A stretch of DNA of 64,000 nt from a virus (taxonomy: Duplodnaviria > Caudoviricetes): the IMG/VR virus record IMGVR_UViG_3300023170_004399, positions 128,001 to 192,000 of that record; one strand, given 5' to 3'. The position numbers and the translations under genes are program-made. Shown here one piece after another: positions 13,406-38,413 of the stretch; positions within the stretch are counted from its first letter, which is position 1, and each line of letters opens with the position of its first letter. The notes beneath the pieces were generated by a model. That model had not been told where the DNA came from and did no database searches. It saw only the letters and a list, made by a program, of their open reading frames with translations.

Positions 13406-15001
13406 ATGAGTACACATAAACAGAAGCAAATAGCAGAAATTATAAAATGTGGAAAGAATCCAGATTATTTTTTTAACAAATATGTTAAAATTCAACATCC
13501 GGAAAGAGGATCTATACCATTTAAAACCTATGATTTTCAAAATGATTGTGTTGATGCATTTAGGGAGCATAGGTTTAATATAGTTTTAAAAAGCCGGCAG
13601 TTAGGTTTATCTACTATAGCTGCGGGTTATGTTGCATGGTTAGCTGTTTTTCACAAAGATAAAAATATATTGATTATTGCTACTAAACTTAGTGTAGCAC
13701 AAAACTTTATAAAAAAAGTCAAATTTATAATAAAGTCAATGCCTAATTGGCTTTTGCTGCCTGAGATATCTGGAAACAATAAACAAACAATAGAGTTTTC
13801 TAATGGATCAGTTATCAAAGCTGTGCCAACTTCTGATGATGCTGGTCGTTCGGAAGCTTTGTCTTTGCTAATAGTAGATGAAGCTGCGTTTGTAAGAAAC
13901 TTTGATACTATATGGACTGGTTTATATCCAACGCTGTCAACTGGTGGTAGTGCAATTATACTTTCAACTCCAAACGGTGTTGGTGGTCAATATTATGATT
14001 TATGGATTGGTGCAACAAATAAAACAAATGTTTTTAATCCAATAAAATTAATGTGGGACGTGCATCCTGATCGGGATGATGAATGGTTTGAAAATGAAAC
14101 CAGGAACATGACGCAGAAACAAATTGCGCAAGAGCTATTATGCGATTTTCAATCTTCTGGTGAAACTTTTATAAGGCCAGAAGATATAGAATATATGTTA
14201 AGCTGGATAAAACCGCCTATTGAAAAATGGGGTCCAGATAACAATGTTTGGGTATGGAAATATTCTTTATCGGAAAAAAAATATATCATTAGTGCGGATG
14301 TAAGTAGAGGTGATTCTAAAGATTTTTCTACTTTTCATGTAATTGACACAGAAAACAGTGAAATAGTTTGCGAATACAGGGGTTTAGCACCACCCGATCA
14401 ATTTGCGCAAATTTTAGCAGAAGCCGGGAAAAGATACAATAATGCTTTAATATGCCCTGAAAACAATTCTTATGGTTATGCTTTGATTATGAAGATGGTT
14501 GAATTAGATTACAAGAATATGTATTACGCATCTGAAAAAGATAGATATGCAGCATTATATGGGTCAGTGGATATAGGAAAAATAGGTTTTCAAACTAACT
14601 CAAAAACTAGGCCGCAAATCTTAACAAAACTAGAAGAAGTACTGCGTACAAAACAAATTAAAGTATATTCAGAAAGGTTGTATGAAGAATTAAAAACTTT
14701 TGTATGGGTTGGTAAAAAAGCGCAAGCAAGAAAAGGTTGTCATGATGACTTAGTCATGGCACTAGCTATTGGTGTGTGGTTGTATGATACATCACCACAG
14801 TTATCGAAACAAGGGTTTGATGTAAATAAAGCAATGTTAGGTGCTTTTTCTGTTAACTCTGTGAAGTTTAATGATACAATATTAGACCAGGAAAATAAAA
14901 ACACTACTGATGTCAAAGATTCTAATGGCAGACATGTAAGAATTGTAAAAGATCCAAGGTTATCTAATAAAGATGATGATGAATTTAACTGGTTGCTATA
15001 A
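13406..15001 (+). CDS. terL: Terminase large subunit (T4 gp17-like)
   Basis: KSRQLGLST (Walker A region), LIVDEAAF (Walker B), LSTPNG coupling motif, nuclease ISADVSRG and HDDLVMA. Confidence 0.96.
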   Translation: MSTHKQKQIAEIIKCGKNPDYFFNKYVKIQHPERGSIPFKTYDFQNDCVDAFREHRFNIVLKSRQLGLSTIAAGYVAWLAVFHKDKNILIIATKLSVAQNFIKKVKFIIKSMPNWLLLPEISGNNKQTIEFSNGSVIKAVPTSDDAGRSEALSLLIVDEAAFVRNFDTIWTGLYPTLSTGGSAIILSTPNGVGGQYYDLWIGATNKTNVFNPIKLMWDVHPDRDDEWFENETRNMTQKQIAQELLCDFQSSGETFIRPEDIEYMLSWIKPPIEKWGPDNNVWVWKYSLSEKKYIISADVSRGDSKDFSTFHVIDTENSEIVCEYRGLAPPDQFAQILAEAGKRYNNALICPENNSYGYALIMKMVELDYKNMYYASEKDRYAALYGSVDIGKIGFQTNSKTRPQILTKLEEVLRTKQIKVYSERLYEELKTFVWVGKKAQARKGCHDDLVMALAIGVWLYDTSPQLSKQGFDVNKAMLGAFSVNSVKFNDTILDQENKNTTDVKDSNGRHVRIVKDPRLSNKDDDEFNWLL

Positions 15002-15039
15002 AAAATAATAGTGTAGTATAATTATATGTGAGGGTTATT

Positions 15040-17031
15040 ATGGCGGAAGAAACACTATTCAACAGATTAACGAAGCTTTTCAGATCTGGGCCTACAATTA
15101 AAAGAAAGGTTAGGACATATACTAAAGCAGATAAAAATGCTAGCTCGGCTGTTGAGTTATTTAAAAAACATCACTCTGATGTTTATAACACTACATTAAG
15201 TGCTTATGGCACATTCGATAGAATGGCTAGATATAGTGATTTTTCAGAAATGGAAAGTACGCCAGAACTAGCCTCAGCTCTTGACATATATGCAGAAGAG
15301 ACTGTTTCACAAGATGCTGAAGGAAGAGTTTTGCACATATATTCTGACAATAGAATAGTGAAAGAATTATTAGAAACACTTTTTTACGATACTCTTAACA
15401 TTGATTTTAACCTGGTTATGTGGGTTAGAAACTTGTGTAAGTATGGTGACTTCTTTCTTTTTAATGATGTGCATCCGGAATACGGCGTTATTAATGCATA
15501 TCCTATACCTATAACTGAAATCGAGCGTGAAGAAGGTTATGATGCAGATGATCCTTCAGCTGTTAGGTTTAGATGGATAACACAAGGCAATCAGACTTTA
15601 GAAAACTGGCAGATTACACATTTTAGGCTTTTGGGAAATGATGCATTTTTACCATATGGGTCATCTGTGCTGGAATCAGCTCGTAGAATATGGCGACAGC
15701 TTATATTAATAGAAGACGCTATGTTAGTATATCGTGTAATCAGGGCGCCTGAAAGACGTGTTTTTTATATTGATGTTGGTAATGTGCCGCCAGAAGATAT
15801 AGCAACATACGTAGAGCAAGCAAAAACTAGTTTAAAAAGAGACTCTGTTGTTAACAAAACAACTGGCCAAGTAGATTTAAGATATAATCCAATGGCTGTC
15901 GATGAAGATTACTTTATCCCAGTAAGAGGTGGTGATTCTGGTACTAGGATTGATAATTTGGCTGGTGGGCAAAATGCTTCTGCCATTGAAGATGTACAAT
16001 ACGTGCAGAAAAAACTGTTTGCTGCGCTTAAGATACCAAAAGCTTATTTAGGGTATGATGAAGACACAGGTGCTAAAGCGACATTGGCACAAGAAGATGT
16101 TAGATTTAGTAGAACAATTCAGCGTATTCAGAAAACTGTTATTGCTGAGTTAAATAAGCTAGCCATGATACACTTGTATTCGCATGGGTTTGAAGGTGAA
16201 GAGTTGTTAAACTTTTCATTAAGTTTGTCTAATCCATCTTCTTTAGCACAACAACAAAAGCTTGAATTAATTAAGACTAAGTTTGATATTGCTGGAAGTG
16301 CACCTGAAGGAATGGTGTCAAAAACATGGTTATATAAAAATGTTTTTTCATTTACTAAAAACCAAATTGAATTAATTCAAAAGCAAAAAATGAAAGAGAA
16401 ATTAGATGATGCTGCATTAGAAGCTGCTGGGAGTGCTGGTGGAGAGGAAGGTGGTGATGCTGGTGGAGACGCTGGTGGAATGGGTGGTTTGTTTAGCGGA
16501 GACAAACCTGAGGGACCATTGCTTAATAATTTAGCTGCAGACAATTTTAGAGAGTCGGAAGCTGTTGTTGGTGATCTAATAGATGAAGATGAAGACGAAG
16601 ATATCGATTTTGTATATGATAAAATAGACAACTATAAAATACAGCCGGAAAAATCTGTTAAGAAAAATGTTTTTGGTGAACCATTAAAAACTAGTCGCAA
16701 AAGAGAAAAGAAAGAAACTTTGTCACCGGGTAAACTATCCGGGATGAACATGGTTAGTGTAACTAGTAACAGAAACACAACAAAAGAGTTTTTAAAAAAT
16801 CCTTTTGGTAACATATATGGAGAAAATTTGCGTTTAGCAGATTCAATTTTAGGTTTTGATCAAGAAGAAGAGGAAGAAGATACATATATAGGTTATAGAC
16901 CAGTTATGGATTATTCTATACAAAGAATGTTTGAGAAAATGAATTCTAAGTTTGGTGTTAAGAAGTTAATAAAAGAAAATAAAGATGAAGAGTTTGAAAT
17001 AGATATTGATTTGGAGGATCAGGATGACTAA
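15040..17031 (+). CDS. gp20: Portal protein (T4 gp20-like) with acidic C-terminal extension
   Basis: ELASALDIYAEE, EDAMLVYRVIRAPERRVFYIDVGN, EDYFIPVRG; start set at ATG 15040 after GAGGG. Confidence 0.95.
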   Translation: MAEETLFNRLTKLFRSGPTIKRKVRTYTKADKNASSAVELFKKHHSDVYNTTLSAYGTFDRMARYSDFSEMESTPELASALDIYAEETVSQDAEGRVLHIYSDNRIVKELLETLFYDTLNIDFNLVMWVRNLCKYGDFFLFNDVHPEYGVINAYPIPITEIEREEGYDADDPSAVRFRWITQGNQTLENWQITHFRLLGNDAFLPYGSSVLESARRIWRQLILIEDAMLVYRVIRAPERRVFYIDVGNVPPEDIATYVEQAKTSLKRDSVVNKTTGQVDLRYNPMAVDEDYFIPVRGGDSGTRIDNLAGGQNASAIEDVQYVQKKLFAALKIPKAYLGYDEDTGAKATLAQEDVRFSRTIQRIQKTVIAELNKLAMIHLYSHGFEGEELLNFSLSLSNPSSLAQQQKLELIKTKFDIAGSAPEGMVSKTWLYKNVFSFTKNQIELIQKQKMKEKLDDAALEAAGSAGGEEGGDAGGDAGGMGGLFSGDKPEGPLLNNLAADNFRESEAVVGDLIDEDEDEDIDFVYDKIDNYKIQPEKSVKKNVFGEPLKTSRKREKKETLSPGKLSGMNMVSVTSNRNTTKEFLKNPFGNIYGENLRLADSILGFDQEEEEEDTYIGYRPVMDYSIQRMFEKMNSKFGVKKLIKENKDEEFEIDIDLEDQDD

Positions 17032-17866
17032 AAAATCCCACAACAAAAAACGAAATGTCGGGATTGTCTACGAACAACTAGTGTATACACTTAGCAAAGC
17101 ATTAGTCGAAGATAATTTTATAACGGCAAATAACACAAAAAAAATTATTAAAAAATTTTTTAAACCAGGTACTGAACTTTATAAAGAACATAAATTATTT
17201 AAAGCTTTGGTCAATGTTGAAATAAAAGATGGCAGTTTAGCAACAAAGATCTTAGAAGAAGCAAAATATGCCAGTAAGAATTTTAATGCTAGTTTACTTA
17301 ATAAAGAAAAATCAAGATTGATAAAAGAAATTAATTACACTTTGGGTAAAGAAGTATATAGCAGTAAGTTGTCTCAATACAAAAAGTTTGCCACAGTCCA
17401 ATCAACTTTAGATATGTGGAGAACAAAAAACCCTGATATATCTAAATTAGCATTGTACGAGTCCAAATGCCATGATATTCTCATGGAAGCTAAGGTTGAA
17501 ACTGATTTAGAAACTTTGAAAACACCGGAAGCGGAAACGTTAGTTGTTAAAATTATGACAGAAAAGTTTAACCAAAAATACAAAAATTTAGATGATACTC
17601 AAAAAATGTTGATTAAAGAATATGTATTTTTCCAATCAGGTCAAAAAAATAGTTTTTTACATGCTATTAAAAATATTAAGCAGAAAACGCTTAACGAAAT
17701 ATCTAGATACAATGTTTCTAGTACTAATAAGTTTGTTAATACTAAGTTAAATGAAGTTAAAAATGATATAGAAAAAATCGATGTAGCTAACGTTAAAGAT
17801 GATACAATTGCTAAGTTTATGCAGATGTGTCAGTTAGTACAGGAACTGGAGACAAATGATGAGTAA
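17024..17866 (+). CDS. Hypothetical head-module protein
   Basis: Between portal and protease; GGAGG before ATG 17024; N-terminal HNKKRNVG motif. Confidence 0.65.
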   Translation: MTKKSHNKKRNVGIVYEQLVYTLSKALVEDNFITANNTKKIIKKFFKPGTELYKEHKLFKALVNVEIKDGSLATKILEEAKYASKNFNASLLNKEKSRLIKEINYTLGKEVYSSKLSQYKKFATVQSTLDMWRTKNPDISKLALYESKCHDILMEAKVETDLETLKTPEAETLVVKIMTEKFNQKYKNLDDTQKMLIKEYVFFQSGQKNSFLHAIKNIKQKTLNEISRYNVSSTNKFVNTKLNEVKNDIEKIDVANVKDDTIAKFMQMCQLVQELETNDE

Positions 17867-18467
17867 TCTAAAAGTACTTACAGAGTGGGCACCATGGGAT
17901 TTTGATAAAGATAAAATGCTGCAAGAGAGAGCAAAGGGTGATGGAAAATACATCATGAGAGGAATTCTTCAAAAAGCTAATACGTTAAATCAAAACGGCA
18001 GAATATACCCATTAGAAATTTTAGAAAGAGAAGTTAGAAATTATCAAAAATTTATTGCTGAAAACAGAGCCTTAGGCGAGTTAGACCACCCTGATTCTAG
18101 TGTTGTTGAGCTGAAAAACGCATCACACATTGTCAGAGAAGCATATATGGAAGGTGATATATGTTATGGCACAGTGGAAATTTTAGACACGCCATCTGGG
18201 AAAATATTGCAATCGCTTATTGACACTGGAGTTACATTAGGGATATCTTCACGTGGTGTTGGATCAACTAGAAGAGAAGGTGATAATCAAGTTGTGCAGG
18301 ATGATTTTCAATTAATTTGTTGGGACTTCGTTTCTGAACCATCTACACCGGGCGCATTTATGATGAAAGAAGGTAAAGAAGTTAGTAAAAAAGATTTAAA
18401 TAAAAGATTTAATAAATCAGATAGAATAGATAGAATCTGTAATGATATCTTAAGTTGGAGAAAATAA
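17856..18467 (+). CDS. gp21: Prohead maturation protease (T4 gp21-like)
   Basis: NQNGRIYP, ALGELDHP (His), LGISSRGVGS (Ser), WDFVSEPSTPGA. Confidence 0.95.
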   Translation: MMSNLKVLTEWAPWDFDKDKMLQERAKGDGKYIMRGILQKANTLNQNGRIYPLEILEREVRNYQKFIAENRALGELDHPDSSVVELKNASHIVREAYMEGDICYGTVEILDTPSGKILQSLIDTGVTLGISSRGVGSTRREGDNQVVQDDFQLICWDFVSEPSTPGAFMMKEGKEVSKKDLNKRFNKSDRIDRICNDILSWRK

Positions 18468-18469
18468 TA

Positions 18470-18883
18470 ATGGCTTATTTTGATATAGATAAAAGATTAG
18501 ATGGCACCTTGCCTGCTTTTACGGGTTCACAACAAAGCATGAGTTCAGGCTTGTTTAATGTACCATCGTATCAAGTATCTGGTATACCTTTAGTAAAAGC
18601 TTACACTGGCGCACAGTCAAACGTAAACCTAAGTTTTGAAACTATAAGTAGATGGATAATTGTAAGTGCTACTGGAGGAAATGTACAGTTAGCTTTTACT
18701 GAAGGTGGCATCGGTAGTGGTAATTTTATTACTGTGCCTAGTGGTGAAATGTCACCTAGAATTGAAGTAATGACAAATGGTATTTGGTTTACTTCTGTTG
18801 GTGACTGTCAAATCATGGCAGGTTTGACTTCAAATATCCTGTCTGGCAGTGCTCTTAATCTAACAAACTTCTCGGATGTTTAA
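18470..18883 (+). CDS. Hypothetical beta-rich protein, possibly capsid decoration
   Basis: GGAG before ATG 18470; Gly/Ser-rich with beta-like alternation; head-module position. Confidence 0.5.
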   Translation: MAYFDIDKRLDGTLPAFTGSQQSMSSGLFNVPSYQVSGIPLVKAYTGAQSNVNLSFETISRWIIVSATGGNVQLAFTEGGIGSGNFITVPSGEMSPRIEVMTNGIWFTSVGDCQIMAGLTSNILSGSALNLTNFSDV

Positions 18884-18903
18884 TAAAATATTATGGAGGC
18901 CAC

Positions 18904-19371
18904 GTGGCTAAATTAAATAAAAAAGCTTTAAAGCAACTAATCAAAGAATGCTTAGTAGAAATATTAGTAGAAGGAATTGGCGACGAAGGAGATATTCTGG
19001 AAGAGTCGTTTTATAGATCTGATATTGAACCTAAACGTACGAAGAAAAAAACTAGCAATGCTTATAAACAAAAAATGCAGCAAATACAAAAACAAAGAGA
19101 TGAATTAGATAAAGTTCGTGTTAATTCACAGCCTCAAGTAAAACAAGATTTTTCTGATATAACATCTGATAGTGTAATGCAAAGTATTTTTGCGGATACA
19201 GCTAAGACTACTTTGGTGGAACAAGTTGAAGGAAAGCGCGGTAGTATTTCTGGCCCTGTAGGTGGAAATGACACATATGCTAGAATTGCAAATGAGAATG
19301 ACCCTATGGACTTGTTTGAAAATTCAAGTCGTTGGGCTAATTTAGCATTTATGGATAAAAAACCGAGTTAA
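18904..19371 (+). CDS. Hypothetical protein, possible internal head/core protein
   Basis: GGAGG + GTG start; N-terminal ALKQLIKECLVEILVEG motif. Confidence 0.55.
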   Translation: MAKLNKKALKQLIKECLVEILVEGIGDEGDILEESFYRSDIEPKRTKKKTSNAYKQKMQQIQKQRDELDKVRVNSQPQVKQDFSDITSDSVMQSIFADTAKTTLVEQVEGKRGSISGPVGGNDTYARIANENDPMDLFENSSRWANLAFMDKKPS

Positions 19372-19409
19372 TATATAATTAGGTAAGTACACTTTTCTGG
19401 AGATATGTT

Positions 19410-19721
19410 ATGAGAAAAAGACGCACAAAAAAAGTAAAAAAGATGTCGGCCGCAGAGCTTAAGAGATTAATCTTAAGTGAAGTGAAAAAATTGCAAATGG
19501 AAGCATTAACTGGCAAAGTTGAAGATATTTCAAAAGTCAAAGCTGAAGAAGTAGATGCATCTGAGTATGCTGATAGTATTGAGCAAGATATAGATTTTAT
19601 GAAAGCTTTAAAAATTCATGAAGCAAAACTAAATCGCAGACATAAAATTATGCGTAGAAAAATGTTAAAGTTGCAGGAAGCAAAGAATAAGTTACGTCGA
19701 AGAATAACAAAAAAATTATAG
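19410..19721 (+). CDS. Hypothetical protein, possible internal head/core protein
   Basis: GGAG SD; ATAATTA at 19375-19381; ELKRLILSE motif. Confidence 0.55.
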   Translation: MRKRRTKKVKKMSAAELKRLILSEVKKLQMEALTGKVEDISKVKAEEVDASEYADSIEQDIDFMKALKIHEAKLNRRHKIMRRKMLKLQEAKNKLRRRITKKL

Positions 19722-19733
19722 GAGTAACATAAT

Positions 19734-20249
19734 ATGGCTAAAAGAAAAGGCTTCACATTAGTTGAATCAAATAAAAACGGTCAAGATGGACAAAAAGGTA
19801 GATCTAATCATGCCAGATTAGCTGCAGCCTACCCAGGTAGCCCGGCTTATAGTGGTGATTATGGTGATCAGACTGTTCATGATTTACAGAAAAAAGAATT
19901 GCTAACTGGTAAAGTTATTAATGGGCACATGTTTGCTAGTTATGATAGAGATTTTACCGGTGATGGAACAATCTCACCACCCGGTTATGCGGAAGTTGAT
20001 GTTGATGGTGCAAACTTATCTAATCCTTTTATGGCAAATCTAGGATCCCCCGGTGAAGGTTCTTTTGATGATGATTCTAAACCAGCACCTAGTGAGCATT
20101 TGCAAGATGCAGAAGCTATTGTAAAAGATAATTTTGGAACAGGCGATAATATTGTACTGCGTAATCCAAAATCAACTAGTGAAAAAGCTGCTTTAGGCGA
20201 TCCTTCTACTCTTCAAAAAGGTGTTAGCCCTGCTAGTGCGAAAAGTTAA
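19734..20249 (+). CDS. Hypothetical head-module protein
   Basis: AGGAG SD; Gly/Asp/Pro-rich; no motif recognised. Confidence 0.6.
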   Translation: MAKRKGFTLVESNKNGQDGQKGRSNHARLAAAYPGSPAYSGDYGDQTVHDLQKKELLTGKVINGHMFASYDRDFTGDGTISPPGYAEVDVDGANLSNPFMANLGSPGEGSFDDDSKPAPSEHLQDAEAIVKDNFGTGDNIVLRNPKSTSEKAALGDPSTLQKGVSPASAKS

Positions 20250-20252
20250 TAA

Positions 20253-20831
20253 ATGACACATTCAAAAGTATCAATCGGAGGCGGAAATTTTCCGGCCAGT
20301 CATGGTGACAGTAGAGACGGGCTAGGTTATGGTCGTCTCCGACCTACTTATGGAATGAAAAGTATGGGTAACAACTACCCGTATACGTGGGAAGAAGATA
20401 GCGATTTTGACTGGGAAGACGCTGATGTCGATGAAGAAGATATAGCAGCTGTTTCTGATAAACAACAGGGTCCGAGAGACTATGATCATGGTGGTGGGCA
20501 TTATGATCCTTTTTCTTTTGCTGGTGGGAATACTAAACTAGGTGAAGCGACGTCTATAAGTCCTATACCACACAGTAAATTGTATGGTAAAAACTTTAAA
20601 AGAAGTGCTGTTGGTGGCACTAAAACTGGAAAGGTTATCCCTGCAGTCAAGCACAGTACTGTGCCAGACACTTATGGTAGCAATGATGGTTTTTCTACAA
20701 TTTTAAGCTATGATGGCAACCATTATGATGAAAATGAAAATGAGGAAGATATATATAATTTAGAGGACGTTGCTAATGTCCAACAAGAAAATCTTTTAAG
20801 AAAATATATAAGAAATTTAATTGAGGTGTAA
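20253..20831 (+). CDS. Hypothetical acidic/Gly-rich head-module protein
   Basis: Packed between neighbours; C-terminal LLRKYIRNLIEV motif. Confidence 0.6.
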   Translation: MTHSKVSIGGGNFPASHGDSRDGLGYGRLRPTYGMKSMGNNYPYTWEEDSDFDWEDADVDEEDIAAVSDKQQGPRDYDHGGGHYDPFSFAGGNTKLGEATSISPIPHSKLYGKNFKRSAVGGTKTGKVIPAVKHSTVPDTYGSNDGFSTILSYDGNHYDENENEEDIYNLEDVANVQQENLLRKYIRNLIEV

Positions 20832-21083
20832 ATGTCAAAAAAAGGTCACTCTAAGGGTAATTTTACTGTTAGGCACAAATTTAACAAGAAAAAAGCAAAG
20901 TTTCAAGACATGAGTTTAGAAGATCAAAACATGTTGTTAGTTAAAAAGTTTCAGAAAAAATTTAAACAAAGCGGCATTATAAAGGAATTAAGAGATAAGG
21001 TTGCTCCTATAACTCGCGGTCAAAAAAGACGGGCTAAAATTAAGGCGGGCATTAGAAGGGCTAAAAAATCACAAAAAAAATAG
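20832..21083 (+). CDS. rpsU: Divergent ribosomal protein bS21-like protein
   Basis: LVKKFQKKFKQSGIIKELRDK...QKRRAKIKAGIRR aligns without gaps to the bS21 core (E. coli [21 protein letters not shown]...ERKRAKASAVKR, recalled); 83 aa, very basic; GAGGTG SD. Confidence 0.7.
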   Translation: MSKKGHSKGNFTVRHKFNKKKAKFQDMSLEDQNMLLVKKFQKKFKQSGIIKELRDKVAPITRGQKRRAKIKAGIRRAKKSQKK

Positions 21084-21134
21084 TTTATCTTATTTTAGGT
21101 AATAATTAATGAATAGTTTTTACGGAGAAATGTT

Positions 21135-22949
21135 GTGAAAAGTATATATGAGCAAGCTATTGCTGATGCTAAGAAACTCAAAGAAATTGCAGAAGCAAAC
21201 GCTACTAATAAAATTATAGAAGCAGTAACACCAAAAATAAGAAGACTTATTGAGCAAGAATTAGAGGGTGATGAGCTTGTTGATGATGATATGGAAGATT
21301 TAATTGATGATCAAGATGATTTAGATGATCTAGATGACGATGATTTAGATGATGACATCGATGATGAAATGGATGATTTAGATGACGAATTAGACATGGA
21401 AGATGAAGCTTATGATCCGGGTGGAGACTATGGTTCTGATGTAGAATTCAATCTAGATGGTATGTCAGATGATTTAGGTATGGAAGATGCAGGAAGTGAC
21501 TATGATATGGATGTTGATTTTTCTGCAAATGATGAACCAATATCTGTCGACACTGATATGTCAATGCCTGATAGTGATAGTGGTAAAAATGTTACTTTTA
21601 ATATCACTGTTGAGCAAGCAGCAAATAAAAATTTAAAACATTTGTCTGGTAGAAAGAGATATAAGCTTATGAAAGATAGAGCTGGTTTCCTTATTGCAAA
21701 ATTAGCAGAGTCAAAAAATAGACGCCAGCAAAAGAAAATTTTATCTGAATTAGCGAAAATTAAAAAACAGTTAATACTTATAAACAATGGAACAAAAACA
21801 GTCCTCACTGAGGGTATTTCTAAGTTACTAAAGGAGAGTAATATGAATAGAAGAAATCGTCGACGTAGTCGACTTAATGAAAACGCCTGGTGGTTGTTTG
21901 AAGCTGAGGGCGATGAAAAAGAAGCAGAAGAAGCAGAAGCTGGATTCGATGATGAAGAAGAAGGCGGAGACGAAGAAGACTTTGACATGGATGATGAAGA
22001 CATGGGTGAAGACGAAGAAATAGACGTCGATGTTGATGCGATTAAATCTGCTGTCGAAGATCTTGCTGCGGCCGTTGGTTTAGAAGTAGATGAAGGTGGA
22101 GCAGATGATGAAGACATGGACTTCGGAGATGATGAAGACATGGACTTCGATGATGAAGATTTTGGAGACGATGATGCTGATGCCGATGATGCTGATGATG
22201 CTGATGCCGATGAAGGTTACATGGCTGAAGAAGATGAGAAAGAAGTTGTTGAAATTTCTGAATCTATGCTTCGAAGAGAACTTAGAAAAATGAATGAGTC
22301 GAAAAGACGTCGTAGAAGAACACCTAGAAGAAGACGTAGATTAAGAGAAAGCGAAGCTAAAGATGCAGCATCTTCTTTTGGTGGTGGAAAAGCTGAGAAA
22401 GATATGTTCGTAGATGTTTCTGAAGAATCATTGCTTAATGCATTGGCTGAAGAGCTAGGTGATGCTCATGATATGACTATCAACTCTGAGCATGCAGAAG
22501 GCGGCGCAGATAAAATGGTTGGTCACTTTGGTGGTGGATCAATTCAAAAAGGTGTTGTACCTGAAGCTCGATTGCGTAGAGAAAGACGCAGAGCTCGAAT
22601 TGCAGAAAGAAAAGCAATAGCTGCTAAAAAAGAATTGCGTGAGTCGAATCTTTTTAACGCAAAGTTGCTTTATGTTAATAAACTTTTACAAAACCATAAC
22701 TTGTCAAAGAAACAACAACGTGCTATTGTTGAGGCTCTCGATAATGCTAAAACAGTACGTGAAGCAAAATTGTTATTTACTTCTTTGACAGAATCACTTC
22801 AGAGACGTAACACTAAGGGCAGTGCACGTCGATTGTCTGAAGGGCGTATAATAGGATCTGGATCAAGCAAATCAGTCCGTAGTGGGTCTCCTGCTAAAAT
22901 TGGAACTGAGTTAGATCGATGGCAGGTACTCGCTGGTATTAAAAAATAA
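21135..22949 (+). CDS. Prohead core/scaffolding protein with long acidic low-complexity tracts
   Basis: Directly upstream of the capsid gene; GGAG + GTG; Asp/Glu-rich middle; coiled-coil C-terminus SNLFNAKLLYVNKLL...RWQVLAGI. Confidence 0.8.
   Translation: MKSIYEQAIADAKKLKEIAEANATNKIIEAVTPKIRRLIEQELEGDELVDDDMEDLIDDQDDLDDLDDDDLDDDIDDEMDDLDDELDMEDEAYDPGGDYGSDVEFNLDGMSDDLGMEDAGSDYDMDVDFSANDEPISVDTDMSMPDSDSGKNVTFNITVEQAANKNLKHLSGRKRYKLMKDRAGFLIAKLAESKNRRQQKKILSELAKIKKQLILINNGTKTVLTEGISKLLKESNMNRRNRRRSRLNENAWWLFEAEGDEKEAEEAEAGFDDEEEGGDEEDFDMDDEDMGEDEEIDVDVDAIKSAVEDLAAAVGLEVDEGGADDEDMDFGDDEDMDFDDEDFGDDDADADDADDADADEGYMAEEDEKEVVEISESMLRRELRKMNESKRRRRRTPRRRRRLRESEAKDAASSFGGGKAEKDMFVDVSEESLLNALAEELGDAHDMTINSEHAEGGADKMVGHFGGGSIQKGVVPEARLRRERRRARIAERKAIAAKKELRESNLFNAKLLYVNKLLQNHNLSKKQQRAIVEALDNAKTVREAKLLFTSLTESLQRRNTKGSARRLSEGRIIGSGSSKSVRSGSPAKIGTELDRWQVLAGIKK
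22104..22213 (+). repeat. Two pairs of 24-bp-period coding tandem repeats
   Basis: gatgatgaagacatggacttcg at 22104 and 22128; gatgatgctgatgccgatga at 22170 and 22194. Confidence 0.85.
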
Positions 22950-23001
22950 GCCCGTTCAATTATACCTTAATTTATAAAACAAAATTTATTGGAGATTTTT
23001 T

Positions 23002-24975
23002 ATGTCTTTTAATGTAAAAATGTTGACTGAAGGTATCCGTGAACGACACATGGGCGCTCAACACAAACGCCTAGTCGAGAAATGGAACCGCACCGGTCTA
23101 CTTAGAGGTCTTAATGGCCAAAACAAAGAAAATATGTCTGTATTGCTTGAAAACCAAGCTGCTCAAGTATTGCGTGAAGCTAACACACTTGGAAATGGTG
23201 GATCTGCTTCCGGTGATATTCGTGGTTTCCAAAACGTAGCATTTCCTATCGTTCGTCGTGTATTCGGTGGATTGGTTGCTAACGAATTGGTTTCTATTCA
23301 ACCAATGTCACTTCCTTCCGGACTTCTTTTCTATCTAGATTACACATACGGATCAAATGTTGGTGGATCAGATCAATCTGGAACAGATAACGACAGCTCA
23401 GTGTACACTTCTGGACAATCTATTTATAACAATCCTACTGGTAAGGGAATTCAAAGCGGTTCTCAAGCAACTGGTGGTCAATACGACTTGCTTGGTTCTG
23501 GTTTTTCCAGACGTCATGTAACACAAAAGTTTGACAACTCTGATAGTGAATTAATTTTAGGTGCATTTACAGATTTTAATACTTGGTCTACTACAACAAA
23601 TCTTATTCAAGAAGGTACAGCTAGTGCCGATGCTCAGGACTTGTTCTCTGCAGGTAACGGTCGTTTTTCTGGATATGATACAGCACTTGCTAATCGTATT
23701 GACAATGGTGATTATGATGCAATTTGGGCTTTGGTAAAGCTTTCTCAACTAACTAGTTCTTTGGGCAAAGTTGATGAAACCATGGTTAAAGACATCGGTC
23801 TTTTTACAACTGGTACAGTTAACGTCAGTACTAACATAGGTGCTTTTGACACAACTGATCAGCCTGGTAACAACCTTCTTAACCTTCGAAGATTGAATCA
23901 AATTGTACAATACAATAGTAGTACAAACAAAGTAACTCCTGCACCACTAGCGACATCTGATGTAGCTGATGCATATCTTTTGACACTTCTTCGAATGGAT
24001 GGAGCTTTAACTATAGTTCCTGCATCTGGTGACATTGGTGACGAAGATATTTCTGTTTCTTATCCTATTAAGGCACAGCTTGATGTTGGTTCTACAACTG
24101 GTGATGCATTGACTATTCCAACATTCGAATCAAACCTTGATAGCCAAAACGGTAGTTCTTATTCACAAGTTTCCCCTGTTATTCCAGAAATTGATATCAA
24201 AATTGAATCTCTTTCAGTAACAGCTGTAACTCGTAAGTTGCGTGCTCGTTGGTCTCCAGAATTGGCACAAGATCTTAATGCTTATCACTCATTGGATGCT
24301 GAAGTTGAATTGACACAAATCCTTTCCGAGCAAATTGCTCTTGAATTGGACCGTGAAATTCTTAATGACTTGTTGACAGCTGCTAATGGTGCTAACTTCT
24401 TCTGGTCACGTGCTCCTGGAAAATTTGTTAACAAAGAGCGTGGAACAACTATAAAACGTGCAGAAGGTACATCAACAGCTGATCCTGGACCTAACTTTAC
24501 TGGTACAGTTCGTGAATGGTATGAAACTCTTGTTGAGACCATTATTGATGTAGCTAACACAATTCAACGTAAGACATTGCGTGGATCAGCTAACTTTATC
24601 GTAGTTGGACCTGATGTTGCTACTATTCTTGAAGCTTCAGTAATGTACAAGCCTTCATATACACTTGATGGTGATGGACAAGCACAAGCTGGTCTTACAA
24701 TCGGTGCAGAACGTGTTGGTAACTTGACAAACCGTTTCACAGTTTATAAAGATCCTTACTTCCCACGTAACAAGATTCTTGTCGGTTACAAAGGTGGATC
24801 TTACCTTGAAACAGGTTATGTATATGCTCCTTACGTACCTCTTATCGTAACACCTACAATCTTTGCTCCTGAAGACTTCACACCACGTAAGGGTGTAATG
24901 ACTCGATACGGAAAGAAGATGGTTCGATCAGACTTCTACGGAACTGTAACATGTTTGGATATGAACATCATCTAA
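23002..24975 (+). CDS. gp23: Major capsid protein (T4 gp23-like)
   Basis: FPIVRRVFGGLVANELVSIQPM, TRKLRARWSPELAQDLNAYHSLDAEVEL, GYVYAPYVPL, PRKGVMTRYGK. Confidence 0.97.
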   Translation: MSFNVKMLTEGIRERHMGAQHKRLVEKWNRTGLLRGLNGQNKENMSVLLENQAAQVLREANTLGNGGSASGDIRGFQNVAFPIVRRVFGGLVANELVSIQPMSLPSGLLFYLDYTYGSNVGGSDQSGTDNDSSVYTSGQSIYNNPTGKGIQSGSQATGGQYDLLGSGFSRRHVTQKFDNSDSELILGAFTDFNTWSTTTNLIQEGTASADAQDLFSAGNGRFSGYDTALANRIDNGDYDAIWALVKLSQLTSSLGKVDETMVKDIGLFTTGTVNVSTNIGAFDTTDQPGNNLLNLRRLNQIVQYNSSTNKVTPAPLATSDVADAYLLTLLRMDGALTIVPASGDIGDEDISVSYPIKAQLDVGSTTGDALTIPTFESNLDSQNGSSYSQVSPVIPEIDIKIESLSVTAVTRKLRARWSPELAQDLNAYHSLDAEVELTQILSEQIALELDREILNDLLTAANGANFFWSRAPGKFVNKERGTTIKRAEGTSTADPGPNFTGTVREWYETLVETIIDVANTIQRKTLRGSANFIVVGPDVATILEASVMYKPSYTLDGDGQAQAGLTIGAERVGNLTNRFTVYKDPYFPRNKILVGYKGGSYLETGYVYAPYVPLIVTPTIFAPEDFTPRKGVMTRYGKKMVRSDFYGTVTCLDMNII

Positions 24976-25009
24976 TCTAGTTATTAGATATATTGTTCAA
25001 CAATGTAAG

Positions 25010-31800: not shown

Positions 31801-31975
31801 ACAGGCTCAGGCGGGTGTAGAAGAATTTAGAGTAATATGTGATAATTCAAACAATAGTGCTAATGATGTTGATGAAAACAGATTAAATGGTACCATTGTG
31901 GTTGTACCTACTAGAGCAATTGAATTTATTGCAATTGATTTTATTATTACTAACTCGGGTGTTAGCTTTGAATAA
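28862..31975 (+). CDS. gp18: Tail sheath protein, copy 1 (gp18-like)
   Basis: SPGFFDREI, GTSKKGPAFVP, WYAPAGFNRG, INPIA, FGQKTL, DRVNVRRL, FVFEQND; start at 28862 after AAAGGAG. Confidence 0.93.
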   Translation: MAENTFKSPGFFDREIELTAQVESPSVTPAGIIGTSKKGPAFVPVTIGSKEQFDNIFGTNDVERFGPYAVEKFLENKAGVTFLRVLGAGANTSTTDIANTEEKGIVKNAGFRIDNGDADATANGQRLGVVQFLTARHTVSANSDVGFPCFTDNNSFPNLREASAADDTVNLVRAVLFTTTGSVFFVQDHNASTPADSDSVSADIATTNTNTKKFRLLLYSEKGSDFATTDGVEGFKVFNVSLDPDDKDYIGKVLNTDPTKFDREQHLLYLDYAVEDELASVVGGANAVAILSGSNSDSTVANVTDKSYRSLYGRYDTRYTTPKTTKFISQPFGKTEYNLFHFETLSDGAMQQDQIKVSISNIKASVEDNYKYGTFNVQVRRLKDTDPKPEILEEFINCSLDPTNERFVGRLIGDRKVKFNFDADLDEEKRLVVSGRYPNVSSHIRIVIDDAVYKKDVPETALPFGFKGIPVLKTNPMLIDDSSAVFTDNQRLAGKGISNSITGSIVPPLPLRFKVTRGSVSTSPSFVGHPGSKEKTREQFYWGVKTDRIVDSARVADGVLNSNVSSQYNKVIDAYSKFQGISKLDTLVTGSSADTFNNNKFTLGRVALVQTLSANGSLPSFTASIPTHMKDAAYIRNGVIDQKTYQIADPIDTSLNRVTFATILNSSATTFNKFSGFAKFTNIFHGGFDGANILNKDLYYMNDKASSQVGYAGDTITGGLGFYGSADQTGSEVALGTGKNNSIVASYRTAIDIMTDPMASNINILAIPGIRDSYITDYAVEKNKDYSMGLYVMDIPTFDEDGNRLFDDSTAKPDVDKTVDDLAARTLDDNAAAAYFPDVQMEDIQNNNRRVNVPASVAALGALAFNDAVSYPWYAPAGFNRGALGFVTNTKTKLSVADRDSLYENRINPIANFPDGSFVIFGQKTLQKAQSALDRVNVRRLLLEVKRQVSAVANRFVFEQNDSATRERFVSQVSPLLAVVQAQAGVEEFRVICDNSNNSANDVDENRLNGTIVVVPTRAIEFIAIDFIITNSGVSFE

Positions 31976-32014
31976 TATATATAGAATAGAAGATAAAATA
32001 AAAGGAGCACATTA

Positions 32015-35005: not shown

Positions 35006-35051
35006 AATACATAATATTTATTAATATACAAAAATTATTGGAGAAAAATAA

Positions 35052-35543
35052 ATGGCTACAGATACATTATCCGTTACAGATATGCTACCGAACAAGTTTG
35101 AAGTAAAACTAAAAAACCGGTGGATATTTTCGCTAGAAGGAATTGACTCATTTTTGATTAAAACAGTCAATAGACCTACTATTTCTATTGAAGAACAGAC
35201 TATATCTTTTATGAACAGCAAAAGATATGTTGCTGGACTTGCTACATTCGACGCCTTAAATCTTACATTGCATGATCCTATTTCGCCATCAGGTGCTCAG
35301 CAAGTAATGGAATGGGTACGTACACACTTTGAATCAGTGTCTGGTCGTGCAGGTTATGCAGACTTTTATAAGCGTGATGCGCAACTTAAATTAGTTGATC
35401 CTGTTGGGACAGTTATAGAATTATGGGACATTAAAGGGATATTTATTACAAGTGCTGGATTTGGTGATCTTAGTTATGAAGATGGAACTCCTTCAGAAAT
35501 TAGTTTAACATGTAGATATGATAATTGTGTATTACAATTCTAG
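35052..35543 (+). CDS. gp19: Tail tube protein (gp19-like)
   Basis: 163 aa after the sheaths; NRWIF, LKLVDPVGTVIELWDIKG, FGDLSYE, ISLTCRYD. Confidence 0.9.
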   Translation: MATDTLSVTDMLPNKFEVKLKNRWIFSLEGIDSFLIKTVNRPTISIEEQTISFMNSKRYVAGLATFDALNLTLHDPISPSGAQQVMEWVRTHFESVSGRAGYADFYKRDAQLKLVDPVGTVIELWDIKGIFITSAGFGDLSYEDGTPSEISLTCRYDNCVLQF

Positions 35544-35598
35544 TAATTAATTTATATAATAGAATAATTTTTGTATAAATAATTCTTAAAATAAAATT

Positions 35599-35621
35599 GG
35601 CGCATTTATGCGCCTTTTTTT
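35599..35621 (+). terminator. Intrinsic terminator after the tube gene
   Basis: ggcgca-ttta-tgcgcc followed by T7. Confidence 0.88.
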
Positions 35622-35686
35622 ATATACAAATTATATTGTATTGATATTATAAGATATGCAAATATATTTTATTCGGAGATACATGT

Positions 35687-36559: not shown

Positions 36560-36806
36560 TAAGCAAATATATCTAGAGTATATTTTTAATTTAATGTACT
36601 ATATGGGATTTACTTATAAAGAAGCGTATAACATACCATTGTGGCAAAGACAGTGGTTTATGAATAGACTAAATGAAGAGATAAAAAAATCTAATGAACA
36701 ACAAAGTTCCGCAAGTAGAGCAGCGCATGCAAACTCACCTGAAATGAGACAAATGCAAGGTAATCATAGATCTATGGTTCCAGCAAAACTTCGAAGATTT
36801 ACATAA
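36543..36806 (+). CDS. Candidate frameshift extension of the tail chaperone (ORF track start 36594 has no SD)
   Basis: This frame is open from 36528 across the T7 run and reads FFGLTPNDKQIYLEYIFNLMYYMGFTYKEAYNIPLWQRQWF... Confidence 0.65.
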   Translation, partial: GLTPNDKQIYLEYIFNLMYYMGFTYKEAYNIPLWQRQWFMNRLNEEIKKSNEQQSSASRAAHANSPEMRQMQGNHRSMVPAKLRRFT

Positions 36807-36821
36807 TCTGTTATACAAAAT

Positions 36822-38396: not shown

Positions 38397-38413
38397 ATTA
38401 TTTTCTGTGTTTT

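What the first reader, a model, noticed from the sequence alone, without database searches (positions are those of the whole stretch)
20832..21083. Phage bS21-like protein with a rewritten FYEKP motif and an N-terminal insertion
Seen: 83-aa basic ORF just upstream of scaffold and capsid. By my alignment 41 residues match the bS21 core without gaps (F, G, E, R, R, R retained), but FYEKP is replaced by APITR and about 14 extra residues separate the first strand from helix 1. Established: bS21 sits beside the anti-SD helix, and some large phages encode bS21 among virion genes and express it late. Inference: a modified bS21 that retunes initiation toward late phage mRNAs or displaces host bS21.
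Basis: partly seen in the sequence, partly recalled or inferred. Interest (0 to 1): 0.7.

Follow-up and report, generated by a model that had tools for sequence, protein, structure and literature searches.

The report
Divergent phage bS21 in head operon
The 83-codon gene is a real, strongly conserved but unusually divergent copy of bacterial ribosomal protein bS21, fixed inside the head-assembly operon of a group of uncultured marine and salt-marsh T4-like jumbo phages; phage bS21 genes next to capsid genes are already documented, so this is a hidden variant of a known kind.

Summary
ORF 20832-21083 (+) encodes an 83-aa protein of pI 11.5. It follows gene o192 with no gap and lies 51 nt upstream of the acidic scaffold gene and the gp23-type capsid gene.

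On its own it scores below threshold against Ribosomal_S21 (16.2 bits; cut-off 27). Its family of at least 241 metagenomic proteins aligns to a bS21 alignment with HHalign probability 95.9%, P 5.5e-9, over 51 gapless columns. Column shuffles give P of 0.016 or worse. Three family members pass Pfam's cut-off, and a near-threshold member (26.6 bits) lies in the same gene order.

FYEKP is replaced by a family-wide (Y/F/A)PxT(R/K)G turn. Annotated phage bS21s of Vibrio phage 2.275.O and Methylophilales phage Melnitz carry similar SKG turns. About 14 extra residues separate the N-terminal NFxV segment from helix 1.

The gene order from portal to capsid is identical in 15 related loci. dN/dS is about 0.04.

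Ribosome binding, late expression and host are not shown. Shine-Dalgarno sites are common across a relative's genome, and the C-terminal tail is very basic with no Tyr54 equivalent, which points to an SD-reading host. The protein lacks the capsid-targeting leader found elsewhere in this genome.

This scan has noted phage bS21 before on other DNA.

The parts
20832..21083 (+). Gene for the 83-aa divergent bS21 homolog (S21L), stop codon included
   Evidence: ORF. PF01165 E 0.0085 and TIGR00030 E 0.023. Family against bS21 profile: HHalign probability 95.9%, P 5.5e-9. dN/dS 0.043 against an 86%-identical relative.
20823..20828 (+). GAGGTG Shine-Dalgarno-like site. The TAA of the upstream gene (20829-20831) abuts the ATG, so the two genes are tightly coupled.
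   Evidence: Sequence. SD scan. The relative L002 has AGAGGA 5 nt upstream and a 4-nt gene overlap.
20859..20870 (+). N10-F-T-V13, the conserved NFxV segment taken as the counterpart of the bS21 N-terminal strand
   Evidence: N10 is invariant and F11 and V13 are nearly invariant in 123 family members. VIA-align pairs model residues 10/11 with residues 1/2 of the bS21 chains. The global HHalign alignment here has low confidence. The equivalence is inferred, not shown.
20871..20930 (+). Lys-rich linker holding the extra residues (about 14 here, about 10 in most relatives) before helix 1
   Evidence: Alignments. The V-to-F spacing is 27 residues against 13 in E. coli. In the AlphaFold model this stretch is mostly coil with pLDDT 58-75.
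20931..21080 (+). bS21 core: residues 34-83, three helices (29-47, 49-55, 62-82 in the model)
   Evidence: 51 gapless HHalign columns against E. coli bS21 13-63. AlphaFold model with mean pLDDT 83. 10-12 solved bS21 chains are hit in one register.
21003..21020 (+). A58-P-I-T-R-G63 turn in place of FYEKP(S/T)
   Evidence: Family-wide motif (Y/F/A)PxT(R/K)G: 116 of 123 members have Y, F or A before the Pro. T61 and G63 are invariant and P59 is nearly so. Similar SKG turns occur in Melnitz and Vibrio 2.275.O bS21.
13406..20831 (+). Upstream part of the head operon: TerL (13406-15001), gp20 portal (15028-17031), 286-aa ORF (17006-17866), gp21-type prohead protease (17856-18467), and five small conserved ORFs (18455-18883, 18904-19371, 19410-19721, 19734-20249, 20253-20831)
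   Evidence: Pfam and PHROGs hits. The same order is found in 15 related loci.
21135..24975 (+). Downstream part of the operon: acidic/basic scaffold-like gene (21135-22949) and gp23-type major capsid gene (23002-24975)
   Evidence: phrog_138 E 5.7e-74 for the capsid gene. Synteny. No terminator-like site before 25774 apart from weak in-gene hits.

Best explanation
The gene encodes a true but strongly diverged homolog of bacterial small-subunit ribosomal protein bS21. It is a fixed gene of the head-morphogenesis operon in a clade of uncultured T4-like jumbo phages with genomes of about 270-305 kb, found in marine and salt-marsh samples. It lies on the same strand as the protease, scaffold and capsid genes and is tightly coupled to its upstream neighbour.

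The most likely function is as follows. The protein is made together with the head proteins late in infection. Its very basic three-helix core binds the platform of the host 30S subunit next to the 3' end of 16S rRNA, in place of the loosely bound and exchangeable host bS21. The ribosomes that translate the large burst of strongly SD-led structural mRNAs would then carry a phage-specified bS21.

Shown here: the ORF is real, it is homologous to bS21, the family and its gene order are conserved, it is under purifying selection, and SD sites are abundant in the phage. Inferred: late co-expression, 30S binding, displacement of host bS21 and any effect on mRNA choice. I put homology at about 0.95. 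The confidence given is for the whole statement including function.
For: Homology to bS21:
- PF01165 is the top Pfam hit, and the match is in register.
- 27 of 123 family members hit PF01165 at E 0.01 or better.
- P0011, P0109 and P0123 pass the 27-bit cut-off with 27.5-28.4 bits.
- P0125, just under the cut-off at 26.6 bits, sits in the same portal-protease-five ORFs-S21L-scaffold order.
- Family profiles hit 10-12 different solved bS21 chains among the 11-14 PDB sequences with E of 10 or better, all in one register.
- HHalign of 123 family sequences against 11 reference bS21 gives probability 95.9% and P 5.5e-9. Shuffled columns give P of 0.016 or worse.
- The ESM Atlas feature neighbours at ranks 2 and 3 are viral clusters in which 95-97% of members carry PF01165 (189 and 181 shared features). 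The structural neighbour is a bacterial bS21 cluster with TM 0.52/0.59.
- The AlphaFold model has the bS21 helix pattern.

A real, constrained gene:
- dN/dS is 0.043.
- The family has 241 members at E 0.001 or better.
- Synteny is identical in 15 loci.

Function:
- bS21 of pelagiphage HTVC008M is incorporated into E. coli 70S ribosomes (PMC6375957).
- Phage bS21 genes commonly lie 2-4 genes from the prohead protease and capsid genes and are transcribed with them (PMC9723584).
- No canonical bS21 exists elsewhere in the 96%-complete relative G001.
- Ribosome-bound chloroplast bS21 also lacks KP(S/T), so the changed turn does not exclude binding.
- SD-like sites precede 33 of 54 window genes against a 6.5% background, and 17 of 19 genes in relative L002.
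Against: - The protein itself is well below the curated thresholds: 16.2 against 27 bits for Pfam, 14.6 against 28.95 for TIGR00030.
- Many family members give no Pfam hit at all.
- The hallmark FYEKP(S/T) turn is replaced.
- An insertion of about 14 residues precedes helix 1, next to the helix that lies over the anti-SD. The interface could therefore have changed or been lost.
- No structural match stands out from noise: Foldseek finds nothing, and bS21 chains rank 1 and 7 in VIA-align but only at Z 3.6-3.8, tied with unrelated helical proteins.
- The position among prohead-core genes of a phage that loads many proteins into its capsid also fits a virion role.
- The host is unknown.
Confidence: 0.6

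Rival explanations
1. A bS21-derived protein has been exapted as a head component: a basic protein of the prohead core or packaged with the DNA. It would either help condense DNA or be delivered into the next host with the genome to act on ribosomes from the start of infection.
For: - It sits between the gp21-type protease and the scaffold gene, after five small ORFs. Three of these have N-terminal LxE-ended leaders.
- That position is invariant in 15 loci.
- pI is 11.5.
- The same genome tags many proteins for capsid loading (earlier notes e1-5389268 and e1-5389328; such leaders were seen).
- Chen et al. raise encapsidation of phage bS21 as a possibility (PMC9723584).
Against: - It lacks the MKxLRxYIRxxLLE-type or any LxE-ended N-terminal leader.
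- Its only I-x-E site (I50-K-E52) lies in the ancestral bS21 G-h-h-x-E motif, and the P3 position varies (I, L, Q, V, A, T, S) across the family.
- The columns conserved across the family are the bS21 core columns.
- Proximity to head genes is usual for phage bS21 genes that are thought to act on ribosomes (PMC9723584).
Confidence: 0.15
2. The host is a Bacteroidota bacterium whose ribosomes hide the anti-SD under bS21, bS18 and bS6. The phage bS21 has no Tyr54 equivalent and a very basic tail. It replaces host bS21, frees the anti-SD and switches ribosomes to SD-dependent translation of phage mRNAs.
For: - The capsid protein's closest cultured relative is Flavobacterium phage immuto (47.5% identity). 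Rhodothermus phage RM378 is also among the hits.
- For the close-relative profile, the best solved match was F. johnsoniae bS21.
- The phage genes are SD-rich.
- F. johnsoniae ribosomes lacking bS21 regain SD recognition (PMC9976891 abstract).
- This protein's tail has no aromatic residue.
- The idea was raised in note e1-5389304.
Against: - SD-like sites are enriched at gene starts in every 20-kb bin of the relative's 289-kb genome (50-100% against 0-19% for the mid-gene control), not only in the structural block. Whichever genes are read before phage bS21 is made would therefore also rely on SD.
- A genuine Flavobacterium phage has SD sites at 1 of 19 genes.
- The tail has pI 12.0, like SD-using phyla and unlike Bacteroidota (PMC7797042).
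- The family profile scores highest against the bS21 of a Vibrio jumbo phage (35.7 bits).
- The only cellular bin holding the family is labelled Gammaproteobacteria.
Confidence: 0.08
3. It is an extraribosomal RNA-binding regulator derived from bS21. It would bind phage head-operon mRNA or another RNA and tune translation of the neighbouring scaffold and capsid genes, without entering the ribosome.
For: - bS21 homologs with regulatory or extraribosomal roles are reported: a paralog governing gene expression in a bacterial pathogen (PMC9578407) and an OLE RNP component (PMC12054373), both from titles and abstracts.
- The turn and N-terminus are altered.
- The position immediately upstream of the scaffold gene is fixed.
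Against: - No conserved RNA element was sought or seen in the 51-nt gap.
- The conserved basic core is the part that contacts 16S rRNA in bS21 (PMC9723584 discussion).
- Nothing in the data specifically calls for this explanation.
Confidence: 0.07
4. It is not a bS21 homolog. It is a small Lys/Arg-rich helical phage protein whose likeness to bS21 is compositional.
For: - The single-sequence scores are weak: E 0.0085 and 0.023.
- PF01165 at loose thresholds also 'rings' in archaeal control genomes that have no bS21.
- Histone H4, DUF1967 and PBS_linker_poly appear as weak side hits.
- The structural Z-scores are not above noise.
Against: - Reversing or shuffling the columns abolishes the profile-profile match: P 5.5e-9 against 0.016 or worse.
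- All bS21 hits share one register.
- Family members pass Pfam's curated cut-off, and a near-threshold one is syntenic.
- Independent embedding neighbours are viral bS21 clusters.
Confidence: 0.04

Closest known systems
Phage-encoded bS21 in the structural-gene region of large aquatic phages (Chen et al. 2022, PMC9723584; Mizuno et al. 2019, PMC6375957)
   Same: A phage copy of bS21 a few genes from the prohead protease and capsid genes, conserved across a clade of large phages from aquatic samples, and presumed to be expressed late and to replace host bS21.
   Different: [quoted passage not shown] They resemble Flavobacteriia bS21, keep the aromatic Tyr54 position and pass standard S21 models.
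- This one is co-directional and coupled to its upstream neighbour.
- It has a replaced FYEKP turn, an N-terminal insertion and a very basic tail with no aromatic residue.
- It is mostly invisible to Pfam.
- It sits in an SD-rich phage.
RpsU3 of Vibrio phage 2.275.O._10N.286.54.E11 (AUS02626.1) and bS21 of Methylophilales phage Melnitz (QZI95013.1)
   Same: Among the 11 references tried, these are annotated phage bS21s that the family profile scores highly (35.7 and 21.5 bits; LR756504 scores 21.9). Both have an x-S-K-G turn (HYTSKG, FYESKG) that aligns with the family's P-x-T-(R/K)-G, and both have N-terminal extensions.
   Different: - They keep the aromatic pair before the turn and have no Pro there.
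- They have no insertion between the strand and helix 1.
- They lie among translation genes (IF-3, an L7/L12-like gene) or small early-type genes beside a tRNA, not in the head operon.
Cellular bS21 (RpsU; Pfam PF01165, TIGR00030), e.g. E. coli bS21 and F. johnsoniae bS21 (PDB 7JIL)
   Same: Similar size and strong basic charge, the three-helix core, and conserved F, G, E and R positions of helices 1-3. The alignment over about 50 residues is gapless.
   Different: - The KP(S/T) turn is replaced.
- There are about 14 extra residues after the N-terminal segment.
- There is no Tyr54-type residue.
- It is encoded by a phage and is absent from 185,579 species genomes, apart from one 306-kb contig that is probably a binned phage.
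T4 internal proteins and prohead-core proteins (IPI-III, gp67, gp68, Alt) with a capsid targeting sequence
   Same: A small protein, here basic, encoded among the head-morphogenesis genes next to the gp21-type protease and scaffold genes, in a phage that uses CTS-like leaders widely.
   Different: It has no N-terminal leader ending in (L/I)xE, and its sequence family is bS21 rather than any known core protein.

Membership tests
Ribosomal protein bS21 (PF01165 / TIGR00030) | Statistically supported sequence homology to the bS21 core (helices 1-3) | tested here: met
   HHalign of the family against a bS21 alignment: probability 95.9%, P 5.5e-9, 51 gapless columns, with shuffles at P 0.016 or worse. 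10-12 solved bS21 chains are hit in register. Viral PF01165 clusters are the nearest Atlas neighbours.
Ribosomal protein bS21 (PF01165 / TIGR00030) | Score over the curated family cut-off | tested here: inconclusive
   This protein scores 16.2 bits against 27 (Pfam) and 14.6 against 28.95 (TIGR00030). Family members P0011, P0109 and P0123 score 27.5-28.4 bits and pass. P0119 and P0125 score 26.8 and 26.6. P0018 and P0120 give no hit. The cut-off is operational, so membership rests on the profile-profile and transitive evidence.
Ribosomal protein bS21 (PF01165 / TIGR00030) | Small, very basic protein with an N-terminal strand followed by three helices | tested here: inconclusive
   It has 83 aa and pI 11.5. 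The AlphaFold model has helices 29-47, 49-55 and 62-82 with mean pLDDT 83, but no strand in the free monomer. bS21 chains rank 1 and 7 of 48,161 in VIA-align, but at Z 3.6-3.8, tied with unrelated helical proteins.
Ribosomal protein bS21 (PF01165 / TIGR00030) | Conserved (F/Y)(Y/F)EKP(S/T) turn between helices 2 and 3 | tested here: not met
   The sequence here is A-P-I-T-R-G, and the family motif is (Y/F/A)PxT(R/K)G. The motif is typical but not universal. Ribosome-bound chloroplast bS21 (5x8p, 6eri: YFENKQ) and the annotated phage bS21s of Melnitz and Vibrio 2.275.O lack KP(S/T). I therefore treat it as a variant feature, not as grounds for exclusion.
Ribosomal protein bS21 (PF01165 / TIGR00030) | Physical component of the 30S subunit | not testable with these tools
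   This needs ribosome fractionation, proteomics or cryo-EM. The host is unknown.
Phage-encoded bS21 of the late/structural region (Chen et al. 2022) | Encoded by a phage, within a few genes of the prohead protease and major capsid genes, conserved across related phages | tested here: met
   It is six genes after the protease, one before the scaffold gene and two before the capsid gene. The order is identical in 15 loci.
Phage-encoded bS21 of the late/structural region (Chen et al. 2022) | Transcribed together with structural genes late in infection | tested here: inconclusive
   It is on the same strand as the head genes, abuts the upstream gene, and no convincing terminator occurs before 25774. 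Contigs from four salt-marsh RNA libraries match the capsid, scaffold and o171 genes exactly. None of those shown covers this 252-nt gene, and contigs cannot show absence.
Bacteroidota-type bS21 (anti-SD sequestering) | Aromatic residue at the Tyr54 position and a weakly basic C-terminal domain | tested here: not met
   The tail GQKRRAKIKAGIRRAKKSQKK has 11 K+R, no acidic residue, no aromatic residue and pI 12.0. In the gapless alignment R75 stands at the Tyr54 position. The criteria come from PMC7797042.
T4-type capsid-targeted internal proteins | N-terminal targeting leader ending in the (L/I)xE site of the prohead protease | tested here: not met
   The N-terminus MSKKGHSKGNFTVRHKF has no such leader. 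Leaders of the MKxLRxYIRxxLLE type are obvious in the relative's cargo genes, and LxE-ended leaders occur in three neighbouring ORFs.

The most novel reading that the evidence does not exclude
The head-operon position is functional. The diverged bS21 would be loaded into the capsid by a route that needs no leader and injected with the DNA. Alternatively, it would be made late in order to switch ribosomes to a phage-specified mode of Shine-Dalgarno reading. Either way, this phage clade would carry a ribosome-reprogramming subunit as part of its virion programme. Chen et al. have already floated encapsidation as an idea, but it has never been shown for any phage.
Probability: 0.1. Interest if true: 0.8.

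Novelty: new variant of a known kind. Interest (0 to 1): 0.35.

Why it matters
Phage bS21 is the commonest virus-encoded ribosomal protein, yet nobody knows what it does during infection. This clade shows three things.

- Surveys based on Pfam cut-offs undercount it. Only 27 of 123 members hit PF01165 at E 0.01 or better, and few pass the cut-off.
- A phage lineage can rewrite the turn that is most conserved in bacterial bS21, and add an insertion beside the helix that lies over the anti-SD, while keeping the rest under strong purifying selection.
- The gene can become a fixed, co-directional member of the head operon.

The family therefore provides natural variants for testing which parts of bS21 set mRNA selectivity. 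It is also a candidate for testing whether phage bS21 is packaged. Apart from that, the finding is an expected member of a documented phenomenon.

Tried and rejected
- PHROGs gave no family for this protein or for its five upstream neighbours, except one weak phrog_1717 hit (E 0.0098) on ORF 18904-19371.
- tblastn of the protein against 50,697 phage records found no match even at E 10.
- An IMG/VR scan with the single protein found no relative. It worked only with a subfamily alignment. The first genome contigs attempt failed because no stretch was conserved enough.
- Foldseek against the PDB gave nothing at E 0.001 or better. VIA-align wide put bS21 chains at ranks 1 and 7, but at Z 3.6-3.8, tied with many unrelated helical proteins, so it is not evidence by itself.
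- HHalign against E. coli bS21 as a single sequence was weak (probability 6%). An 11-sequence reference alignment was needed.
- Weak side hits were judged compositional or local: DUF1967 (Obg C-terminal domain), PBS_linker_poly in 17 of 123 members, histone H4, and a 3,053-aa repeat protein P0008 matching only the N-terminal 28 residues eight times.
- The T4 late-promoter consensus TATAAATA occurs 8 times against 12 expected, and is not near this gene. Sigma-70-like and terminator-like sites are not enriched.
- RNA evidence: contigs of four metatranscriptome runs cover capsid, scaffold and o171, but none of those shown covers 20451-21414. This says nothing about absence.
- I tried to compare SD use in early and late genes. 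No T4-type replication genes could be recognised in the relative's genome (PF00136; tblastn with HTVC008M gp43/44/45/62/RegA; two Pfam batches). Only a position-wise SD profile was possible.
- Flavobacterium phage immuto has no S21 and no homolog of this gene between its protease and scaffold genes.
- The MAG holding the only 'cellular' copy gave no bS21 of its own for comparison.
- Complex prediction was not used. The main partner is rRNA and the host is unknown.
Full report
**1. The observation**

- It has 29 Lys+Arg against 5 Asp+Glu, and pI 11.5.
- Its ATG directly follows the TAA of the upstream 192-aa ORF, and GAGGTG lies at 20823-20828.
- Downstream, after 51 nt, comes a 604-aa acidic/basic scaffold-like gene (21135-22949). 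The major capsid gene follows (23002-24975; phrog_138 E 5.7e-74).
- Upstream lie TerL, a gp20-type portal, a 286-aa ORF, a gp21-type prohead protease (phrog_207 E 2.3e-51) and five small ORFs without known family.

The window is therefore the head module of a T4-like phage. Earlier notes of this scan describe the genome as a roughly 270-kb marine T4-like jumbo phage.

**2. Is it bS21-like?**

*The protein on its own.* It is marginal. PF01165 Ribosomal_S21 gives E 0.0085 and 16.2 bits against a cut-off of 27, with residues 38-77 on profile positions 15-54 of 55. TIGR00030 gives E 0.023.

*The family.* The protein belongs to a sizeable family.
- There are 5 close relatives.
- An exhaustive profile search found 11 representatives at 50% clustering.
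- A search with a 13-sequence profile found 241 proteins at E 0.001 or better, all from metagenomes. A few are already named 'ribosomal protein S21' by JGI or carry a precomputed PF01165 hit.

*Family against Pfam.* Scanning 123 members one by one, 27 hit PF01165 at E 0.01 or better.
- P0011, P0109 and P0123 pass the curated cut-off with 27.5-28.4 bits.
- P0119 and P0125 miss it by 0.2-0.4 bits.
- Typical members such as P0018 and P0120 give no hit.
- P0125 lies in the same portal-X-protease-five ORFs-S21L-scaffold order.

The family therefore grades continuously from 'Pfam-visible S21' to 'invisible'.

*Family against solved structures.* Family profiles searched against all PDB sequences return almost only bS21: 12 of 14 hits for A2 and 10 of 11 for A3. 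The chains come from bacteria of several phyla and from chloroplasts, and all align in the same register.

*Profile-profile test.* I built an 11-sequence reference alignment from records fetched here: E. coli, an Acinetobacter sequence, three Firmicute-type sequences, and the phage bS21s of HTVC008M, Mosig, Melnitz, PA5oct, Vibrio 2.275.O and LR756504.
- HHalign of the 123-sequence family against it gives probability 95.9% and P 5.5e-9 over 51 gapless columns, with query 34-83 on E. coli 13-63.
- The reversed family alignment gives P 0.64, and 30 column shuffles give P 0.016-0.91. The match is not compositional.

*Independent support.*
- The ESM Atlas places viral PF01165 clusters at feature ranks 2 and 3 (scores 0.88 and 0.86; 189 and 181 shared features). 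A bacterial bS21 cluster is the structural neighbour, with TM 0.52/0.59.
- An AlphaFold model built on the family alignment has mean pLDDT 83 and helices 29-47, 49-55 and 62-82, which is the bS21 pattern.
- Structure searches add little. Foldseek finds nothing. In VIA-align the bS21 chains of Borrelia and E. coli rank 1 and 7 of 48,161 and are covered end to end, but at Z 3.6-3.8, level with unrelated helical proteins.

I take homology to bS21 as established, at about 0.95.

**3. The two peculiarities**

*The turn.* In the gapless alignment A58-P-I-T-R62 replaces F37-Y-E-K-P41.
- Across the family the turn is itself a strongly conserved motif, (Y/F/A)-P-x-T-(R/K)-G. T61 and G63 are invariant and P59 is nearly so.
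- 102 of 123 members keep an aromatic residue (Y or F) at the position of F37. The window's subgroup has Ala.
- So this is a constrained replacement, not decay.
- It has precedents. Melnitz bS21 reads FYESKG and Vibrio phage 2.275.O RpsU3 reads HYTSKG.
- The family HMM scores the Vibrio jumbo-phage protein highest of the 11 references (35.7 bits). LR756504, Melnitz and PA5oct follow at 20-22 bits, and the other references score 14 bits or less.
- Chloroplast bS21, solved on the ribosome, reads YFENKQ. KP(S/T) is therefore not required for ribosome binding.

*The insertion.* The conserved N-F-x-V segment (N10 invariant) is followed by a Lys-rich linker.
- The V-to-F distance is 27 residues here and 23 in most relatives, against 13 in E. 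coli.
- That NFxV corresponds to the bS21 N-terminal strand is inferred only. The structural alignment starts at model residue 10 or 11 against chain residue 1 or 2, and the global HHalign alignment there has low confidence.

**4. Conservation and context**

- tblastn with the window's eleven head-module proteins shows the identical order in every related locus: portal, X286, protease, o142, o155, o103, o171, o192, S21L, scaffold, capsid. This covers L002, twelve IMG/VR loci, L043 and L046, as far as each contig reaches.
- S21L identity is 47-61% in the distant loci. That is higher than for the five small ORFs and lower than for the protease.
- Against the 86%-identical relative, dN/dS is 0.043 with dS saturated.
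- The family is essentially phage-only. Among 185,579 species genomes the only hit is a 305.8-kb contig in a MAG labelled Methylococcaceae TMED69. That size matches related phage contigs of 288.7 kb, so it is probably a binned phage.
- The 96%-complete relative G001 has no other, canonical bS21.

**5. How it probably works**

bS21 is a loosely bound, exchangeable platform protein next to the anti-SD.
- HTVC008M bS21 enters E. coli ribosomes (PMC6375957).
- Of 900 bS21-encoding phages, 310 have a prohead protease within ten genes, usually 2-4 genes away.
- In lake phages bS21 is transcribed with the structural genes (PMC9723584).

Here the gene is co-directional with the head genes and abuts its upstream neighbour. 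No convincing terminator occurs before 25774. I therefore expect co-expression with the head proteins and replacement of host bS21 on 30S subunits at the time of bulk structural-protein synthesis. None of these steps is shown. The tail GQKRRAKIKAGIRRAKKSQKK has pI 12.0 and no aromatic residue. It is unlike the weakly basic, Tyr54-bearing Bacteroidota type (PMC7797042).

**6. Host type and the 'SD-unlock' idea**

A note of this scan (e1-5389304) proposes that the phage bS21 frees the anti-SD in a Bacteroidota host.

In favour:
- The capsid protein's nearest cultured relative is a Flavobacterium phage.
- The phage is SD-rich: 33 of 54 window genes against a 6.5% background, and 17 of 19 in L002.

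Against:
- That Flavobacterium phage has SD-like sites at only 1 of 19 genes.
- In the relative's whole genome, SD-like sites are enriched at gene starts in every 20-kb bin (50-100% against 0-19% mid-gene). This includes the PhoH/PrkA/SpoVR region.
- The family's best-scoring annotated relative belongs to a Vibrio phage.

The simpler reading is an SD-reading host, so I give the unlock model about 0.08. I could not class genes as early or late, because no T4-type replication genes were recognisable.

**7. The virion rival**

This genome tags many proteins with a leader ending in the protease site (e1-5389268 and e1-5389328).
- I saw such leaders (MKxLRxYIRxxLLE) in the relative.
- Shorter LxE-ended leaders occur on three of the five ORFs just upstream of S21L.
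- S21L has no leader. Its single I-x-E lies in the ancestral bS21 G-h-h-x-E motif, with a variable P3 position.

A packaged or head-internal role remains possible at about 0.15, and Chen et al. already suggested encapsidation. The sequence gives no positive sign of it.

**8. Habitat and expression**

- DNA contigs of salt-marsh metagenomes from 2018 hold 81-99% of the sampled words of the head operon. Marine metagenomes from 2025 hold 26-51%.
- Contigs from four salt-marsh RNA libraries match the capsid, scaffold and o171 genes without a mismatch. None of those shown covers the 252-nt gene, which says nothing either way.

**9. Verdict**

The phenomenon is documented, including phage bS21 beside head genes, presumed late expression, and even the packaging idea. 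Some family members already carry the S21 name. What is new:
- a large phage lineage whose bS21 has a rewritten, conserved turn and an N-terminal insertion;
- most of its members escape standard models;
- the gene is a fixed, co-directional member of the head operon of SD-rich jumbo phages.

I class it as a new variant of a known kind, with interest 0.35.

Noticed in passing
G001 (IMGVR_UViG_3300020473_000010), 3-355 on the minus strand, and 68693-77933; held as L028 and L031: ARAGORN calls a tmRNA-like gene at the very end of the relative's 288.7-kb contig, with tag peptide ANNNYFYDSERLAA. It also calls three tRNAs: Thr-tgt, Leu-taa and Arg-tct. Together with bS21 these would form a small translation toolkit. 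The tag might hint at the host.
   Followed up: no
window 18455-20831: Five small ORFs (142, 155, 103, 171 and 192 aa) between the prohead protease and the bS21-like gene have no Pfam or PHROG family, apart from two sub-threshold Pfam hits and one weak PHROG hit on the 155-aa ORF, but are conserved in order in 15 related loci. Three begin with leaders ending in LxE (..LIKECLVEILVE|G..LKRLILSE|V, MAKRKGFTLVE|S), so they look like prohead-core or cargo proteins cut by the protease.
   Followed up: partly
G001, whole 288.7-kb relative genome (L028-L042): No family-B DNA polymerase (PF00136) was found. There was also no tblastn match to the HTVC008M sliding clamp, clamp loader, gp62, RegA or polymerase N-terminus. 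The T4-type replication module is missing or unrecognisably diverged in this 'T4-like' jumbo phage.
   Followed up: partly
window, whole; L002; L001 (Flavobacterium phage immuto); G001: GGAG-type Shine-Dalgarno sites precede 33 of 54 window genes and 17 of 19 genes in the relative L002. They precede only 1 of 19 genes of the Flavobacterium phage that is the nearest cultured relative by capsid protein. This argues that the host reads SD sequences.
   Followed up: yes
G001 31900-40300 (L029-L030): A run of adjacent genes begins with the same leader, MK(x)LRxYIRxxLLE. This is the capsid-address tag described in earlier notes of this scan. Their SD sites look weaker than those of the core structural genes.
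   Followed up: no
proteins P0005 and P0017 (metagenomic relatives): One 70-aa relative lacks exactly residues 10-22, the NFTVR segment and the start of the linker. One 123-aa relative has the N-terminal half fused to a Gly/Lys-rich tail. Both come from very short contigs, so they may be real variants or assembly artefacts.
   Followed up: no
G001 95133-96755 (L032:15133-16752, minus strand): The relative's genome encodes a full-length Cpn60/GroEL-type chaperonin (PF00118, E 1.6e-62).
   Followed up: no
window 17800-25000: Contigs from four salt-marsh metatranscriptome libraries match the capsid, scaffold and o171 genes with no mismatch. DNA contigs from salt-marsh metagenomes (2018) hold 81-99% of the stretch's sampled words, and marine metagenomes (2025) hold 26-51%. 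This gives the phage's habitat and suggests it was active there.
   Followed up: partly
L048: NHDW01000006.1, a 305,838-bp contig of MAG 'Methylococcaceae bacterium TMED69': This is the only hit of the family in 185,579 species genomes. The contig has the size of a whole phage genome of this clade, so a phage genome has probably been binned into a bacterial MAG.
   Followed up: no
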